Assembly: GCA_963793305.1 (NCBI GenBank)
Contig: CAWBZV010000014.1
Location: forward strand, 1-64,000
Length of the DNA stretch: 64,000 nucleotides
Reading direction: 5' to 3'
Source: an uncultured Gemmatimonadales bacterium
GTDB taxonomy: Bacteria > Gemmatimonadota > Gemmatimonadetes > Gemmatimonadales > Gemmatimonadaceae
Part shown: positions 13,933 through 49,627 of the stretch, piece after piece
Numbering within the stretch: the first letter of the stretch is position 1
How the letters are laid out: each line of letters begins with the position of its first letter
The notes under the pieces: model-generated
Databases searched by the model: none
What the model was told of the DNA's origin: nothing
Seen by the model: only the letters and a program-made list of their open reading frames with translations
Position numbers and translations under genes: made by a program

Positions 13933-14682
13933 TTGTCCGACCGACCAGTCTTGCGCGAAGCGCCAAGACGCGCCGCGGAGCGGCGTTTTCTTACTGCGGA
14001 ATGGCGCGACCTCGTGATGATCAATTACGAGGTCGGGCCCGAGATGCTCGCCTCACGAGTCCCAGGCGGGACCGAGCTCGATCTCTGGCATGGGCGCGCG
14101 CTCATCTCCGCGGTCGGCTTTCAGTTTTTGGACACGCGAGTGCGGGGGATCGCGGTCCCATTTCATCGAGACTTCGACGAAGTCAACCTGCGCTTTTATG
14201 TGCAGCGACAGGTTGGCGACGAAATCCGTCACGGGGTTGTGTTCTTGAGCGAGCTCGTCGCGCCCGTGTTCGTCGCGTTGATTGCGCGACTGGCGTACAA
14301 CGAGCCTTACGAGGTGGCGCCCGTGCGGCGCGTGGTCTCGGCCGCAGGACGCTTCGAGTATGCGTGGCGCCGAGGGCGGATCGGCGGAAGCCCCGATGGC
14401 GAGTTCAGCGTGCCGGCACCCGACTCAGAGGCGGCGTTCGTCACCCAGCGTCACTGGGGATACACGCGTCAGCGCAACGGATCGACGGTCGAATATCACG
14501 TAGCCCATCCCCTGTGGCGCGTCTGTCGAGCGCGCGACGCGATATTCGAGACCGACGTGCCGAGCATTGTTGCCGCGCGAGGTCCGATTTCGGCGTATCT
14601 CGTTGACGGCTCCGCCGTCCAGGTCTCCGAGCCCCGCCACGACTTGGTGGCTCGACGTGCAGGTGATGGTCAGGATCACTGA
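13933..14682 (+). CDS. DUF2071/YqjF family protein
   Basis: FLTAEWR.L..INY, EVNLRFYV, WGYT, EYHVAHPLW. Confidence 0.8.
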   Translation: MSDRPVLREAPRRAAERRFLTAEWRDLVMINYEVGPEMLASRVPGGTELDLWHGRALISAVGFQFLDTRVRGIAVPFHRDFDEVNLRFYVQRQVGDEIRHGVVFLSELVAPVFVALIARLAYNEPYEVAPVRRVVSAAGRFEYAWRRGRIGGSPDGEFSVPAPDSEAAFVTQRHWGYTRQRNGSTVEYHVAHPLWRVCRARDAIFETDVPSIVAARGPISAYLVDGSAVQVSEPRHDLVARRAGDGQDH

Positions 14683-26643: not shown

Positions 26644-27899
26644 GTTCGGTAGGGAAGCTCGATGTCGACCGTGAAGCCTGCGCCGGGCGCCGTCGAGATC
26701 GTCAAGCGCTGGCGGTCTCCGTACATGTGGCGCAGCCGCGCGCGGGTATTGCCTAAACCTATGCCCTCTTGATACGACCCGTCGAGGCTCGCGCCTATTC
26801 CGTCATCGGCGACCGTGAGGCGCAGGATCGTGCCATCCCGCGACGCTTTCACATCGACCGTCCCGCCGGCCGCTCTCGGTTGTATGCCGTGCCGTATCGC
26901 ATTCTCGACGAGCGGTTGCAGGACGAGATTCGGCACGATCGCCGTCCTGACACTCGGGTCGACATCAATCCTGACGGTCAACCGTTCCTGGAATCGCAGT
27001 CGCTGCATGTCGACATAGTGTCCGAGCAGCTCCAGCTCACGCTCGACGCGGACTTCGTGCTCGGCGCCCGCGTCGAGTGAGAGGCGCAAGAGCTCGCCGA
27101 GCCCATGCACCGCCCGCTCGGCGCCACGCGGATCAATGGGGATCAAAGCCGTGATGGCGTTCAGCGCATTAAAAAGAAAATGCGGTTGCAGTTGCTGCTT
27201 GAGGCTCTCGAACTGCGCCCGTCCCAGCCGGACCGCGAGGCGTTCTTGCTCACGCGCCGCCTGGTCATAGCGCTTGGCCAAACGCTCGTGCCACGTCGTC
27301 GCGAAGCCCGAAGCTGCGCCGGCGACCGCGAGCAGAAGGATCTTGGCGCCTTCGTCCAGTGGAGCGACGGCGCTGCCCGCCGCGGCCGCGAGCGGACTCG
27401 CGGTCATCGGTACGCCACCAGCCGAAAGTAAGAAGATCACGAGGACCGAATATTCGACGACGGTCAGCGCGCTGACGACCCACGCGATGCGAGTTGATGA
27501 GGTGACGGGGCGAGCGGCCAGAATTGCGAAGTAGGCCAGGAAAATCGGGGCCTTGAGGGCGAGCCCGGCGGATTGGGCGAGACCGTAGCCGAGCATGCTG
27601 AGGGTCACCGCCGTGACGTTGACGACCGGGTTGGCGATGCTGAGCCAAGCGGGTAACCGGGGCTGGTGGTACCAGCGCAAGTACTGAAAGAAGGTCCAGG
27701 CCAGGGTAGGAATCAGGACCGACACGTTGACCAAGCGCAGCGCCGGGGTCAGCGTCGGCGAATACGCGACCGCTGAGAACGCAAGGAGGCCCAGGATGAG
27801 CGCCCGGACGGCGTTGAGCTGCCGCTCAGCCCGGTCGCGTAGCTCGACGAGCGGCTCGGAATCGTCCGTCCGGAGCGTTGGGAATCGATCCTGCGTCAC
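26640..27899 (-). CDS. LytS-type sensor histidine kinase
   Basis: QLQPHFLFNALN, LQPLVENAIRHG, GIGLGN; multi-TM N-terminus. Confidence 0.92.
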   Translation of the reverse strand: MTQDRFPTLRTDDSEPLVELRDRAERQLNAVRALILGLLAFSAVAYSPTLTPALRLVNVSVLIPTLAWTFFQYLRWYHQPRLPAWLSIANPVVNVTAVTLSMLGYGLAQSAGLALKAPIFLAYFAILAARPVTSSTRIAWVVSALTVVEYSVLVIFLLSAGGVPMTASPLAAAAGSAVAPLDEGAKILLLAVAGAASGFATTWHERLAKRYDQAAREQERLAVRLGRAQFESLKQQLQPHFLFNALNAITALIPIDPRGAERAVHGLGELLRLSLDAGAEHEVRVERELELLGHYVDMQRLRFQERLTVRIDVDPSVRTAIVPNLVLQPLVENAIRHGIQPRAAGGTVDVKASRDGTILRLTVADDGIGASLDGSYQEGIGLGNTRARLRHMYGDRQRLTISTAPGAGFTVDIELPYRT

Positions 27900-27932
27900 C
27901 TTATCAGCATTCGCATTCAGGAGAAGAGTCTA

Positions 27933-29864
27933 ATGGCCTCGATGACCCAGGGCGACGCGCCGAGCTCTACCGCCCTCGATTTCTTAGCGGACCGGGCGAC
28001 ACAGTTGCGGATCGATTCCGTGCGCGCGACGACCGCGGCCGGCAGTGGCCACCCGACGAGTTGCGCATCGGCGGCCGAAATCATGTCGGTCCTGTTTTTC
28101 TCGGTGATGCGATACGACCCGAGCCATCCGAAGGACCCCGCGAACGATCGGTTCGTCCTCTCCAAGGGTCATGCGGCGCCGATCCTCTATGCCGCGTGGG
28201 CCGAAGCCGGACGCGGCTCCGCCGCTAGTCAAGGTGCTTCGCACTTGACTGGTCGGTTGGAACAGAGCTCGCCTGGCTCGCTCTTGACGCGCGAGCAGCT
28301 CCTGACCCTGAGGAAGCTCGACTCGGATCTCGAAGGGCATCCCACTCCGAGATTGCCGTTCGTCGACGCCGCGACCGGGTCGCTTGGGCAAGGTCTCTCC
28401 GTCGGTCTCGGGCTCGCGCTCGGTTCGCCCGACACGCGGGTGTATGTGCTCATGGGTGATGGGGAGACGGCGGAAGGCTCCGTGTGGGAGGCGGCGGAGC
28501 TCGCTGGGTATTATCGCGTCGGCAATCTCTGCGCAACCGTCGACGTCAATCGCCTCGGGCAGAGTGGGCCGACCATGCTGCAACACCAAATGGAGATCTA
28601 CCAGGCCCGCTTCGAGGCGTTTGGGTGGAATGCGGTCGTCGTGGACGGGCACGATGTCGGCGCGTTGCTCGAAGCGTATGAGAACGCCGCGCATGTCACG
28701 GACCGGCCATCAGTTGTCTTGGCCCGCACGGTGAAAGGGAAGGGCTTTCCCGGCATCGAAGACCAAGAGGGGTGGCATGGGCGAGCACTGGATGCCGCGA
28801 CAGCCGACAAGGTCATCGCGGCATTGGAATCAACGCGTCATGGTATCGCCGAAGCGTGGACGCCACACTTGCCAACGGTCCATGTCGCGGCGGCTTCGCC
28901 GCCCGCGATGAATATGCCACGAGCGCCGTACGCCGTTGGCGTCAAGCGCATCTCAACCCGGCGCGGCTTCGGGGACGCGCTCGCTGCACTGACCAAGATC
29001 GACCAGCGAGTCTTTGTACTCGACGGAGATGTCAGAAACTCGACCTATACCGACGAAGCCGAAGTCGCGGCCGCGGCGCGATTCGTCGAGGGGTACATCG
29101 CCGAGCAGAACATGATCGGCATGTCCATCGGACTCTCGGCACGCGGGCGCATCCCCTTCGCCGCCACATTCTCGTGCTTCTTGTCGCGCGCATACGATTT
29201 CGTGCGAATGGCGTCGATTGGCGGCAATAACATCAAGCTCGCCGGCACGCATTCCGGAGTCTCGATTGGCGAAGATGGTCCGTCGCAAATGGGCCTCGAG
29301 GACTTGGCGCAGATGTGCGCGCAGCCGGACATGACGGTGCTCTACCCGGCCGATGCCACCGCGGCGTGGGAAGCGACGCGACTGGCGGCCGCGAAGAACG
29401 GACCATGTTACATCCGGTTAGGCCGACCGGAGTCGGACGTGATCTATCCACCCGATACCGTGTTCGAGATCGGACGGTGCCACGTGCTACGCGAGAGCGC
29501 GACCGATCGGGCGCTGATCGTGGCCGGCGGGGTCACCGTGTTCGAGGCGCTGGCCGCCTACGAGATTCTGCAGGGAGAAGGCGTCAATGTTCGCGTGATC
29601 GACCTGTTCAGCGTGCAGCCCATCGATGCCGACACGCTGATCACCGCGGCGCGCGGAGCGGGTGGGATCGTCCTGACAGTGGAAGATCACTACGCGCATG
29701 GCGGGCTCGGCGACGCCGTGATTGCGGTGCTCGCGGAAGAGGGCATCAAGTGCAAGAAGCTCGCTATACGGGAGATCGCGCACAGCGGACAATCGGCCGA
29801 GCTGCTCGATCGCTATGGCATCTCGGCTCGGCACATTGTGGGAACTCTCGAAGAGATCCTGTGA
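27933..29864 (+). CDS. tkt: Transketolase, carrying an in-frame insert of about 23 aa
   Basis: SGHPTSC, LSKGHAAP, LEGHP, GSLGQG, GDGETAEG, IAEQNM, GEDGPSQ, VEDH. Confidence 0.95.
   Translation: MASMTQGDAPSSTALDFLADRATQLRIDSVRATTAAGSGHPTSCASAAEIMSVLFFSVMRYDPSHPKDPANDRFVLSKGHAAPILYAAWAEAGRGSAASQGASHLTGRLEQSSPGSLLTREQLLTLRKLDSDLEGHPTPRLPFVDAATGSLGQGLSVGLGLALGSPDTRVYVLMGDGETAEGSVWEAAELAGYYRVGNLCATVDVNRLGQSGPTMLQHQMEIYQARFEAFGWNAVVVDGHDVGALLEAYENAAHVTDRPSVVLARTVKGKGFPGIEDQEGWHGRALDAATADKVIAALESTRHGIAEAWTPHLPTVHVAAASPPAMNMPRAPYAVGVKRISTRRGFGDALAALTKIDQRVFVLDGDVRNSTYTDEAEVAAAARFVEGYIAEQNMIGMSIGLSARGRIPFAATFSCFLSRAYDFVRMASIGGNNIKLAGTHSGVSIGEDGPSQMGLEDLAQMCAQPDMTVLYPADATAAWEATRLAAAKNGPCYIRLGRPESDVIYPPDTVFEIGRCHVLRESATDRALIVAGGVTVFEALAAYEILQGEGVNVRVIDLFSVQPIDADTLITAARGAGGIVLTVEDHYAHGGLGDAVIAVLAEEGIKCKKLAIREIAHSGQSAELLDRYGISARHIVGTLEEIL
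28212..28280 (-). repeat. Palindromic element inside tkt, related in reverse orientation to the intergenic repeat
   Basis: GCGGCTCCGCCGCT..GTCAAG..CTTGACTGGTCGGTT versus the reverse complement of 29995-30052, GCGGCTACGCCGCT..GTCGAG..CTCGACTAGTCGGTT. Confidence 0.65.
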
Positions 29865-29887
29865 GGGATTGAAGCTGTTAGGCAGCG

Positions 29888-30054
29888 GTTGGGGGGTCCG
29901 GGGGGCGTAGTTGGGGTTTGGCTCTTCGGAAAGACGCCTTCGGCGTCATTGGTTGCTCGCCGAGCCGCCTGCGGCGGGTTGCCCCCCGGAGGCGAACCGA
30001 CTAGTCGAGCAGCGTAGTGTGCTGCTCGACGCGCCGGAGCGGCGTAGCCGCTAC
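29888..30054. repeat. Intergenic multi-hairpin repeat, copy 1, with nested ~67-nt insert
   Basis: Near-identical to 49526-49627 outside 29913-29979. Confidence 0.88.
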
Positions 30055-30482
30055 GGCGCGCGGGCGATGGCGAAGAACGCGAGGGCCTTTTCGCGGTCTC
30101 GGATCTTGTCCGGCGGCAGATAGATGTTCGCGTAGGTGATCGTGTAGACGTGACCGCGCCGGAGTACCTTCGTGACAGGCCGGGCGCCTGTCACGACCGC
30201 TTTCTCGCCGAGCGATGGCACCTGCTTGATGCTGTCGCTGACCGCGTCCCAAAAACCGTCATCGTAGTCGCGCGTGGTCTCGACCTTGATCAAGATGGTC
30301 GCGTTCGAGTCGGTCGTCGTGATCAGGCATTCGGGCGACTGGAATTGCGACAGCGCCGTCGTGGTGACGGTGTCATTTGTCGCGCTCAGGACCTCGGCGG
30401 GCGTGAGCAACAAGCACGGGTTCGCCGTGATCATCTGCGCGTGGAGCGCGGCCGGCACGAAAAGCAGGAAAAGCGAGCGCAT
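30051..30482 (-). CDS. Secreted hypothetical protein
   Basis: Signal MRSLFLLFVPAALHA-Q; NPCLLLT..EV motif. Confidence 0.75.
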   Translation of the reverse strand: MRSLFLLFVPAALHAQMITANPCLLLTPAEVLSATNDTVTTTALSQFQSPECLITTTDSNATILIKVETTRDYDDGFWDAVSDSIKQVPSLGEKAVVTGARPVTKVLRRGHVYTITYANIYLPPDKIRDREKALAFFAIARAP

Positions 30483-30914: not shown

Positions 30915-32696
30915 TTACTTCGCCGGCGAGTCGAGCGAGAAGACGGTCAACACGCCACCCTGCGTCGTGAACGATCCGGCATCACCGAAGGCGCCCAACG
31001 CGCCCAAGCCGGCCGTCGGATCTTCGGCGCCAATGCCCGCCGCCACGCCGATCCCGGCCCAGCCGCCGATGCCGGACAGAACGGCCACGTACTGCTTGCC
31101 GTCCGGCCCCACATACGTCATCGGATTCCCGATAATCCCCGACGGTGTCTTGAACTCCCACAGGAGCTTGCCCGTCTTCTGATCGACGGCCTTGAGCCAC
31201 CCTTCCATCGTCCCGTAGAAGACGAGATCACCGGCCGTCGCCAGCGCCCCACCGTAGGCGGCTAGGTTCTCCTTATCCGACCACATGATCTTCCCCTGCA
31301 TCGGATCCCAGGCGATGAACGCCCCCCGATTGCCGCCGGGGCCCGGGAACATCCGCACGATCGCGCCGACATACGGCTGACCCGCCGCGTACTTCACCTC
31401 GACGCCCTCGTAGTCCATGCAGATGTTGTTCGTCGGCACGTAGTTCCAGCCCGTCTTTGGGCTATACGCCGACGGCTGCTGATCCTTGAACCCGATCGCC
31501 GCCGGGCAGATCCCCTCGGTGTTCCCCTTGGCGGTGGTCCGCTTGCTCGCGTCTTCCACCGGCCGACCCGTCGTCAGATCGATCGACTTGGCCCAGTTCA
31601 CCGGCCCGAACGCGTTGGCGACCAACACCTTCCCGTTCGTCCGATCGAGCGTGTAGCCGAACCCGTTCCGGTCGAAGTGGGTCAGGATCTTCTTCCCGTC
31701 CTTCGTATCGATCAGCACCATCTCGTTGACGCCGTCATAGTCCCACGCGTCGTGCGGCGTCATCTGGTAGACCCACTTCACTTCCCCCGTCTCCGGGTTG
31801 CGGGCCCAGATCGTCATCGACCACTTGTTGTCGCCCGGCCGCTGGTCGGGGTTCCACGTCCCGGGGTTGCCCGAGCCGTAGTAGAAGAGGTTCAGCTTCG
31901 GGTCATACGAGTACCAGCCCCAGGTCGTCCCGCCCCCGTGCTGCCACTCATCGCCCTGCCACGTCGAGACGCCCAGGTCCTTCCCCTGCATCGACGGATA
32001 GTTCGCGTTCGGCGTGCCCGTGATCTTCACATCCGCATCCGGCCCCGTCGAGTAGGCGCGCCACACCTCGTGGCCGTCCATGGCGTCGAAGGCCGTGACC
32101 CGGCCCCTAACCCCGAACTCGCCGCCCGAGATCCCCGTGATGACGACGTTCTTCACCACGAGCGGGGCGTTGGTCATCGTCTCGCCCTTGTGGAAATCGG
32201 CCGACTTGACCTGGAAGATCTTCTTGCCGGTCTTGGCGTCGAGGGCGAGTAAGTCGCCCTGCAGGAGCTCGATGTAGAGCTTGCCCGAGGGGTGATAGGC
32301 GAGCCCGCGGTTCACCACGTCGCAGCAGGCGATCGGGATGACGTTGGCGTCCTGTTCGGGCGTGTACTGCCAGATCTGGGGCGCGCCGGGCTTGGAGAGA
32401 TCCAGCGCGTAGACCTTGTTCGGGAACGACGAGTGCAGGTACATGACGCTGCCAATGACGAGGGGGTTGCCCTCGTGTCCGCGCAGCGTCCCGGTCGAGA
32501 AGCTCCACGCGGCGTGGAGGTGCGCCACGTTCGTGGCGTTGATCTGCGTCAGTGGGCTGTAGCGCTGCAGGTCGTACGTCCGACCTGTCATCACCCACTG
32601 GTTCGCGTTCTCCGACATGGATTCCAGCGAGCCTTCTTGCGCGCTCGCCGTTGCCGCGAGAACTACTCCGGCGAAAACGATCGACGTGTATCGCAT
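30915..32696 (-). CDS. xoxF: Lanthanide-dependent PQQ methanol dehydrogenase (XoxF type)
   Basis: RYSPL.QIN, FSTG.LRGHEG, ACCDVVNRG, SGGEFGVRG, WDYDGVNE (extra Asp), GKQYVAVLSGIGGW; signal peptide. Confidence 0.92.
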   Translation of the reverse strand: MRYTSIVFAGVVLAATASAQEGSLESMSENANQWVMTGRTYDLQRYSPLTQINATNVAHLHAAWSFSTGTLRGHEGNPLVIGSVMYLHSSFPNKVYALDLSKPGAPQIWQYTPEQDANVIPIACCDVVNRGLAYHPSGKLYIELLQGDLLALDAKTGKKIFQVKSADFHKGETMTNAPLVVKNVVITGISGGEFGVRGRVTAFDAMDGHEVWRAYSTGPDADVKITGTPNANYPSMQGKDLGVSTWQGDEWQHGGGTTWGWYSYDPKLNLFYYGSGNPGTWNPDQRPGDNKWSMTIWARNPETGEVKWVYQMTPHDAWDYDGVNEMVLIDTKDGKKILTHFDRNGFGYTLDRTNGKVLVANAFGPVNWAKSIDLTTGRPVEDASKRTTAKGNTEGICPAAIGFKDQQPSAYSPKTGWNYVPTNNICMDYEGVEVKYAAGQPYVGAIVRMFPGPGGNRGAFIAWDPMQGKIMWSDKENLAAYGGALATAGDLVFYGTMEGWLKAVDQKTGKLLWEFKTPSGIIGNPMTYVGPDGKQYVAVLSGIGGWAGIGVAAGIGAEDPTAGLGALGAFGDAGSFTTQGGVLTVFSLDSPAK

Positions 32697-48289: not shown

Positions 48290-49525
<1,236 letters not shown>

Positions 49526-49529
<4 letters not shown>

Positions 49530-49627
49530 TTGGGGGTCCGGGGGGCGTAGTTTGCCCCCCGGAGGCGAACAGACCAGTCGAGCAGCGTAGTGTGCTGCAT
49601 CGACGAGCCGCGGAGCGGCTTTACTAC
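49526..49627. repeat. Intergenic multi-hairpin repeat, copy 2 (GTAG...CTAC ends)
   Basis: Stems CCGGGGGGC/GCCCCCCGG and GTCGAGCAGC/GCTGC(A)TCGAC, loops starting GTAG. Confidence 0.88.

What the first reader, a model, noticed from the sequence alone, without database searches (positions are those of the whole stretch)
28212..28280. Palindromic repeat inserted in frame inside transketolase
Seen: 69 nt (RGSAASQGASHLTGRLEQSSPGS) sit between LYAAWAEAG and LLTREQLLTLR, segments that are normally adjacent in transketolases. The DNA forms hairpins and matches the reverse complement of the intergenic repeat: GCGGCT(C/A)CGCCGCT...GTC(A/G)AG...CT(T/C)GACT(G/A)GTCGGTT. The A-T versus G-C swap in the stem is compensatory. 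Established: Rickettsia palindromic elements insert in frame into conserved genes. Inference: an independent repeat family that adds peptide segments to proteins.
Basis: partly seen in the sequence, partly recalled or inferred. Interest (0 to 1): 0.8.

Follow-up and report, generated by a model that had tools for sequence, protein, structure and literature searches.

The report
Mobile DNA hairpin translated inside transketolase
A 69-base hairpin repeat, one of about 100 copies in a soil Gemmatimonadaceae genome, sits in frame in a transketolase gene and in 14 other genes whose relatives lack it; it likely spreads as folded single-stranded DNA and is predicted to add only a tolerated loop, making it a new family of a phenomenon already known from Rickettsia.

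Summary
Confirmed. Window 28212-28280 is a clean 69-nt in-frame insertion. Same-genus orthologues (96% and 85% identical) have the empty site, and 119 of 120 close homologues have the short spacing. A covariance model from 20 intergenic copies scores it 57.6 bits. The family has about 102 copies here and is essentially genus-restricted. Fifteen copies lie mid-gene in frame (Pol I, SMC, MazG, MeaB and others), all with empty orthologues. Relatives carry 52 further sites that are empty here. Contigs from three studies carry the insert. AlphaFold predicts an intact enzyme plus a helix extension and disordered loop. GNA triloops and wobble pairs point to one structured DNA strand. No RAYT, reverse transcriptase or DUF559 gene was found in this genome. 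A sister subtype arrives with 26-165-nt flank duplications that rebuild gene ends. In-frame palindromic repeats are known (RPE, intragenic REPs). This scan already described this same family elsewhere in this genome (e1-8329387) and similar cases in other Gemmatimonadaceae. New family of a known kind; mobiliser unidentified.

The parts
27933..29864 (+). Transketolase gene, human-like type (643 aa), host of the insertion; cofactor-binding and catalytic motifs intact
   Evidence: motifs GHPT, KGHA, EGHP, GDGE, WHG, IAEQ, THSG, GEDG present
28212..28280 (+). The 69-nt inserted element (HP3 subtype), read as residues 94-116
   Evidence: single 69-nt gap against G001 and G005; joint 28211 to 28281 skipping 69 in a DNA contig of run X2
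28213..28225 (-). Hairpin 1, 5-bp stem with C-GGA-G triloop on the minus strand; marks the fixed end of the element
   Evidence: 93 of 93 parsed copies have C-GNA-G here (parse allowed 2 substitutions)
28227..28250 (-). Hairpin 2, bulged stem with C-GAA-G triloop on the minus strand; compensatory A-T pair against the G-C consensus
28250..28258 (.). Conserved unpaired linker between hairpins 2 and 3
28264..28284 (.). Hairpin 3, degenerate in this copy; its last arm runs into host bases present in the empty allele
28284..28289 (+). Two codons next to the junction changed from Phe-Pro (113 and 112 of 119 close homologues) to Leu-Thr
13934..13986 (-). Intergenic copy of the family (HP3 subtype), core
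   Evidence: 54.8 bits
29991..30045 (-). Intergenic copy (G-rich GGG subtype), core, downstream of the transketolase; core absent at this site in G001
   Evidence: 41.5 bits
49564..49621 (-). Intergenic copy (GGG subtype), core, just downstream of the isocitrate dehydrogenase gene 48312-49529
   Evidence: (67 bits)

Best explanation
The 69 bases are one copy of a genus-specific, three-hairpin DNA repeat that inserted in frame into this transketolase, and the gene likely tolerates it because the 23 added residues are predicted to form only a short helix extension and a disordered loop outside the folded core. SHOWN: family membership, empty sites in relatives, about 102 copies, 15 in-frame mid-gene copies, gain or loss at dozens of sites between close relatives, no terminal inverted repeats, a fixed hairpin-1 end and a ragged hairpin-3 end. 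INFERRED: the working form is single-stranded DNA of the strand bearing GNA triloops. A hairpin-reading nuclease acting in trans cuts at the hairpin-1 edge, and the other end is resolved by homology. With microhomology (weak G^CTC preference, a few target bases often overwritten) this gives the short HP3 insertions such as this one. With 26-165 nt of carried flank it gives the GGG-subtype insertions that duplicate and rebuild gene ends. Purifying selection then keeps coding insertions only where the net length is a multiple of three and the site is permissive. The peptide is a passenger, not a selected domain.
For: Empty sites for 15 of 15 mid-gene candidates: transketolase, Pol I, SMC, Zn-ADH, cardiolipin synthase, MeaB, agmatinase, MazG, MBL hydrolase (35), gluconolactonase-like (36), membrane protein, ArsR-AHSA1, nitrile hydratase accessory, BNR protein, hypothetical (79-83). 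Of 78 sites mapped from 121 metagenome loci, 52 are empty in G000 and 26 shared; 6 of 6 HP3 insertions into G000-called genes are multiples of 3, against 13 of 22 plausible-length HP3 sites outside my strict gene class (counted by hand from the listing; 4 rows with implausible lengths dropped). Covariation: 94.7% of cells paired, 33 double changes, 0 of 500 shuffles, slid controls 23-46%. GNA triloops on one strand: 41 of 52 triloops in hairpin 2, 48 of 57 in hairpin 3; stem mismatches read G-T on that strand 12 vs 3 and 14 vs 1. d(GNA) loops closed by C:G are very stable in DNA (PMC3201870 abstract). Long flank duplications in 15 of 47 GGG copies, 0 of 80 HP3 copies; examples rebuild alaS start, icd end and mutM end. 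AlphaFold pLDDT 95.2, pTM 0.94; helix 79-100, blocks 101-120 at 57-66, under 50 at 109-114. Three distant homologues have natural 10-11 aa insertions at the same spot. G000-branch changes in this gene: 47 synonymous, 6 non-synonymous. Peptides differ in strand and frame between genes.
Against: No mobiliser was found: Y1 transposase 0 of 6 genus genomes, reverse transcriptase and DUF559 absent from G000, IS91-type 0 of 6 with a silent control; no recurrent gene family beside the copies. The GNA strand is also usually the sense strand (12 of 15 mid-gene, 29 vs 9 codirectional intergenic), which an RNA role would explain too. Excess divergence on the hairpin-3 side was clear in 4 of 9 gene loci but not significant in 21 metagenome pairs (Wilcoxon p 0.48). 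The date of insertion on the G000 branch is unknown, so the synonymous excess does not prove selection after insertion. This genome has a second, bacterial-type transketolase, so this copy may be dispensable. No RNA contig spans the filled allele. The 15 in-frame copies were selected by ORF continuity; one further site shared with G001 (sensor kinase, C11:31565) is frameshifted by 1 nt in G000.
Confidence: 0.68

Rival explanations
1. It is an ordinary REP family mobilised in trans by a REP-associated Y1 tyrosine transposase that is missing from these assemblies or visits on a transient element.
For: Size, copy number, position near gene ends and genus restriction fit REPs. TnpA-REP processes single-stranded bulged palindromes (PMC8266576 abstract), and hairpin 2 is bulged. 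G000 is 92% complete.
Against: PF01797 found in 0 of 6 genus genomes, four of them at least 90% complete, while the control rang in 6 of 14. No terminal GTAG or unpaired CGTC tag. No copies flanking a transposase gene.
Confidence: 0.17
2. The repeat works as an RNA element (transcript stability or termination), is kept by the host for that role, and spreads by recombination; coding copies are by-products.
For: 62 of 102 copies are intergenic, and the structured strand is the sense strand in 29 of 38 codirectional cases. G-T wobbles suit RNA as well.
Against: C-GNA-G triloops are a DNA-stability motif; no Rfam match at E<=1 in 27800-30200. Three mid-gene copies, including this one, are in the other orientation. 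Sites turn over quickly between close relatives, which argues against locus-specific function.
Confidence: 0.1
3. The segment is removed from the RNA like a small intron, or is an assembly artefact.
For: Run X2 holds both the filled form and a form skipping exactly 69 nt; RNA contigs show only the skipped form.
Against: X2 is a DNA run, so the skipped form exists as DNA. The RNA contigs carry the relatives' Phe-Pro codons, not the Leu-Thr codons of the filled allele. The filled junction is spanned with 0 differences in contigs of X2 and X4, wholly in X1 and partly in X3, three studies. All 15 mid-gene copies keep frame, which splicing would not require.
Confidence: 0.02
4. The added peptide is a selected functional module of these enzymes.
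For: A recurrent STRRGAA-like peptide appears in many of the 12 copies read from the GNA strand; some insertions are shared between relatives.
Against: This copy is read from the other strand and gives an unrelated peptide; several frames are used; hosts are functionally unrelated; the insert is unique among 120 close homologues and predicted disordered.
Confidence: 0.03

Closest known systems
Rickettsia palindromic elements (RPE; Ogata et al. 2000, 2002, seen only second-hand in passages of PMC10969869, PMC3733652 and PMC3184786; the original PMC186582 was not held)
   Same: Dispersed palindromic repeat, lineage-restricted, many copies in frame inside unrelated conserved genes, no linked transposase identified.
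   Different: Shorter (63-84 nt net vs about 105-150), no hit to NCBIfam models, read in both strands and several frames rather than as one conserved peptide, free-living soil host, smaller coding share (15 of 102 mid-gene vs nearly half).
GTAG- and CGTC-tagged REPs, including intragenic REPs of Opitutus terrae (PMC3733652, abstract and passages)
   Same: 20-30 aa intragenic inserts, including DNA polymerase I as a host; clustering at gene ends; compensatory stem variants; CGTC families also lack a dedicated transposase.
   Different: No terminal unpaired GTAG or CGTC tag; a fixed three-hairpin monomer rather than head-to-head dimers; no RAYT in the genus; the term Gemmatimonas does not occur in that paper's main text (its supplements were not read).
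IS200/IS605 and TnpA-REP single-strand transposition (PMC8266576 abstract; PMC6006769 search listing)
   Same: Hairpin-defined ends, no target duplication at HP3 sites, one structured strand.
   Different: No Y1 enzyme found; one end is ragged with overwritten target bases; the GGG subtype brings long flank duplications.
Betaproteobacterial repeat element (BRE), BOX and RUP intragenic repeats (PMC3184786 section 15)
   Same: Small repeats fused internally or at the ends of protein genes.
   Different: Sequence similarity not tested directly; BRE has about 9 internal inserts; MITE-type members have terminal inverted repeats, which this family lacks.

Membership tests
Rickettsia palindromic elements | Dispersed palindromic repeat inserted in frame in conserved genes, with empty orthologues | tested here: met
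   15 of 15 mid-gene copies have empty orthologues
Rickettsia palindromic elements | Homology to RPE peptide models | tested here: not met
   0 of 5 insert peptides hit any NCBIfam model at E<=10; HMMER filters limit weak hits, and that RPE models are in this library is recalled, not shown by a call
Rickettsia palindromic elements | One conserved peptide, element about 105-150 bp | tested here: not met
   net 63-84 nt, both strands and several frames
Rickettsia palindromic elements | Decorated protein expressed in vivo | not testable with these tools
   no RNA contig spans the filled allele in 4 of 4 RNA runs laid; no proteomics
GTAG REP / REPIN-RAYT | Terminal unpaired GTAG next to the stem | tested here: not met
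   flank of hairpin 1 has no such consensus in 93 parsed copies; listing of 100 tails shows none at the other end
GTAG REP / REPIN-RAYT | Y1 tyrosine transposase gene flanked by the repeats | tested here: not met
   PF01797 0 of 6 genus genomes, control 6 of 14; assemblies incomplete
CGTC REP | Terminal unpaired CGTC, 8-9 bp stem, 4-5 nt loop, short tail | tested here: not met
   CGTC occurs internally and its GTC is paired in hairpin 2; loops are mostly triloops
MITE | Terminal inverted repeats and target-site duplication | tested here: not met
   ends are not complementary; 0-3 nt of ambiguity at HP3 junctions in 19 filled/empty pairs
IS200/IS605-type non-autonomous element | No target duplication, subterminal hairpins | tested here: met
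   for the HP3 subtype; not for the GGG subtype
IS200/IS605-type non-autonomous element | Strict short target motif and precise ends on both sides | tested here: inconclusive
   weak G^CTC bias (G 12, C 11, T 10, C 15 of 19); 0-8 mismatches in the first 10 nt on the hairpin-3 side
Transketolase (human-like, NF004559) | Full-length match above cut-off with ThDP-binding and catalytic motifs | tested here: met
   793 bits vs 488; alignment to 4kxu; motifs

The most novel reading that the evidence does not exclude
The family is a transposase-orphan ssDNA element that moves by one precise nick at a GNA-hairpin end and is resolved at the other end by homology. It can carry 26-165 nt of flank, including diverged homologous gene ends from other lineages (mutM, icd), and so rebuilds the gene it lands in. 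That would be a gene-sparing, gene-end-swapping mode of mobility, and a candidate answer to how RPE-like and CGTC-like repeats without a linked transposase colonise coding sequence.
Probability: 0.25. Interest if true: 0.78.

Novelty: new member of a known kind. Interest (0 to 1): 0.45.

Why it matters
How small palindromic repeats without a linked transposase enter genes is unresolved for RPE-like and CGTC-type families. This family supplies more than 70 filled/empty site pairs at roughly 76-99% flank identity, two junction types and a defined structured strand, so the question can be approached from junction sequences. It also lists natural 21-28 aa permissive sites in Pol I, SMC, transketolase and other enzymes. 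The phenomenon itself would not surprise a specialist, and the host is known only from metagenome assemblies.

Tried and rejected
Mobiliser searches: Y1 none; IS91-type Y2 (65) none, control silent so uninformative; reverse transcriptase and DUF559 (68) only in G003, which has 1 pattern match; PF05635 once in G000 with no family copy in the 3.3-kb locus. A GIY-YIG gene next to a copy is a UvrC-like gene behind mutM, present without the repeat in four congeners. No recurrent neighbour family among 187 adjacent genes and no transposase-like ORF recognised by eye in 14 unmapped loci (118; not scanned against Pfam). Viral contigs: 0 exact matches to an 18-nt core. Rfam: none. Arm of hairpin 3 templated from the target: permutation p 0.58 in 19 pairs. 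Flank-divergence asymmetry: not significant in 21 pairs, though some diagonals were mis-set by duplications. Replichore bias 54 vs 33, p 0.03, on weak GC skew: inconclusive. First AlphaFold run on a shallow alignment failed (pLDDT 32.7). Fold search could not be queued, so surface exposure and distance to the active site were not measured. Literature: a search with Gemmatimonad, palindromic, repeat, REP listed nothing on this family among 15 rows; further searches likewise; most subscription journals are not covered. Small-share runs that I did not lay are not used.

Full report
Observation. The ORF at 27933-29864 encodes a 643-aa transketolase of the human-like type. Among 61 genomes searched, close orthologues occur in two congeners, G001 (96%) and G005 (85%), and both match residues 1-93 and 117-643 with no DNA between. 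The DNA alignment places one 69-nt gap at 28212-28280, without target duplication. Eleven of 11 other full-length cluster members listed lack it. In 119 of 120 close homologues the spacing between the KGH and EGHP motifs is 29 residues (one did not parse); here it is 52. Source names of these cluster members give the host family as Gemmatimonadaceae. The insert is not an assembly error: it is spanned in contigs of runs X1, X2 and X4 and entered in X3, three studies in all, and X2 also holds the empty allele as DNA. X1 may be the source sample.

The family. An HMM seeded on the three other window copies and iterated without the insert finds 99 genome copies at E<=1e-3 and 102 at E<=0.01, against none at E<=0.1 in the reversed genome. 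A covariance model from 20 copies that my gene caller classed as intergenic scores the insert 57.6 bits (E 2.4e-13); the first non-family hit scores 13.7. The element is hairpin 1, bulged hairpin 2, a conserved linker, then either a variable third hairpin (HP3, 73 of 100 parsed, including this copy) or a G-rich module (GGG, 27). Pairing is supported by covariation. An exact core occurs 30, 11, 9, 1 and 0 times in the five congeners. In the species-wide scan, which stopped at 76 loci, 38 had an HMM hit; the strong ones are in records titled Gemmatimonadaceae plus one short contig that aligns to G000 and is probably misbinned.

Coding copies. With a simple hexamer gene caller (5234 genes), the 102 copies fall into 15 mid-gene, 13 C-terminal, 4 N-terminal, 8 partly overlapping and 62 intergenic. 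All 15 mid-gene copies are HP3 and all have empty orthologues: transketolase, DNA polymerase I, SMC, Zn alcohol dehydrogenase, cardiolipin synthase, MeaB, agmatinase and MazG by DNA alignment, net 63-84 nt; an MBL hydrolase and a gluconolactonase-like protein by cluster members; five more by split matches in relatives. Terminal classes were not checked against orthologues. Because these 15 were picked by ORF continuity, the unbiased test is the reverse one. Of 78 sites mapped from 121 metagenome loci (24 element matches unmapped), 52 are empty in G000, and 6 of 6 HP3 insertions into G000-called genes are multiples of three. One shared site is in frame in G001 and frameshifted by one base at the element edge in G000.

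Effect on the protein. With a 129-sequence alignment AlphaFold gives pLDDT 95.2 and pTM 0.94. Residues 94-100 extend the preceding helix and 101-119 are coil of low confidence. The site aligns just after residue 91 of human transketolase 4kxu, between two conserved histidine motifs (their catalytic role is recalled). It is length-invariant among close homologues, yet 3 of 114 parsed distant representatives carry 10-11 extra residues there, and Leu and Thr occur naturally at the two changed positions. The G000 branch shows 47 synonymous and 6 non-synonymous changes, like the empty G001 branch (48 and 2). A second, bacterial-type transketolase exists in the genome. Expression of the filled allele is not shown.

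Mechanism. On the strand opposite to this insert's reading strand, loops are C-GNA-G triloops (41 of 52 and 48 of 57 triloops in hairpins 2 and 3) and stem mismatches read as G-T (12 vs 3, 14 vs 1) or G-A. Such loops are very stable in DNA (PMC3201870 abstract), so I infer a single-stranded DNA substrate. The hairpin-1 end is fixed to within a base or two. The other end is ragged: empty sites lean to G^CTC, which resembles the element's own end, and 0-8 of the next 10 bases differ from the empty allele in 19 pairs. GGG copies carry long direct duplications in 15 of 47 cases against 0 of 80 for HP3, often ending exactly at hairpin 1 (tandem and orthologous copies are not independent). Where they land inside genes, the duplication regenerates the alaS start, the icd end or the mutM end, and the icd and mutM duplicates are largely synonymously diverged. 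The simplest common model is a nick at hairpin 1 by a trans-acting enzyme and homology-guided resolution of the other end. This is inferred. No enzyme was found, the asymmetry of flank divergence held in 4 of 9 gene loci but not in the larger set, and templating of the third arm from the target was not supported.

Comparison with what is known. It works like an RPE but fails the homology and single-peptide tests, and it lacks the tags and transposase of GTAG and CGTC REPs and the ends of MITEs. In-frame palindromic repeats are reported in Rickettsia, Opitutus, Thauera, Bordetella and others (PMC3733652 abstract and passages; PMC10969869 passages; PMC3184786 passages and section 15). Supplements were not read; the intragenic list of PMC3733652 could bear on novelty. 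My searches listed no paper on this family. The scan's own notes describe the same family in this genome and related cases in other Gemmatimonadaceae; these are unchecked notes, read after my main tests, and are not counted as support.

Verdict. Real, well supported, a new family of a known kind. The added value lies in the junction data and the unexplained mode of movement. Interest 0.45.

Noticed in passing
L215:1700-1910 (G000:C5 about 285190-285340): GGG copy at the mutM 3' end: the ancestral last 8 codons lie behind the element, and a synonymously diverged copy now ends the gene; about 60 nt further upstream are also unusually diverged from G004.
   Followed up: partly
window 48312-49621 and L259: A relative carries the element plus a diverged 75-nt duplicate of the isocitrate dehydrogenase 3' end, inserted 75 nt inside the gene that in this window has the element just downstream.
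   Followed up: partly
L253, L256, L297 against L370: Element inserted about 72 nt inside alaS with a duplication that restores the start of the gene.
   Followed up: partly
L048 (G000:C11:30736-31964): Sensor kinase with the element shared with G001; in frame there, 1-nt deletion at the hairpin-1 edge here. Real frameshift or assembly error not resolved.
   Followed up: partly
L036:504-2933: Methyltransferase and membrane protein form one 810-aa ORF in G000 but are separated by a TAG in G001.
   Followed up: no
G000:C3:849161, C3:1492759, C4:100922, C5:664792, C5:914659: A sub-family with a different hairpin-2 stem and no recognisable hairpin 1 but the same linker and third hairpin.
   Followed up: no
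window 27933-29864: This human-like transketolase has close orthologues in only 3 of 61 related genomes; the next named hits at 61-64% are Acidobacteriota and Nitrospira, suggesting lateral gain by the genus.
   Followed up: no
L052, L060, L066: G002, which lacks the repeat, has other extra sequence at the Pol I, SMC and cardiolipin synthase sites; the family profile does not match it convincingly.
   Followed up: partly
G000:C6:738-2248 and C21:6550-7859: Two near-identical copies of a gene pair with the same element on separate contigs, possibly strain contamination.
   Followed up: no
L304, L325, L326, G000:C6:62212-62481: Tandem units of GGG element plus flank with periods of 135-213 nt, two or three copies.
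   Followed up: partly
window 30915-32696: ORF resembling a PQQ-dependent alcohol dehydrogenase (recalled from its sequence, not tested).
   Followed up: no
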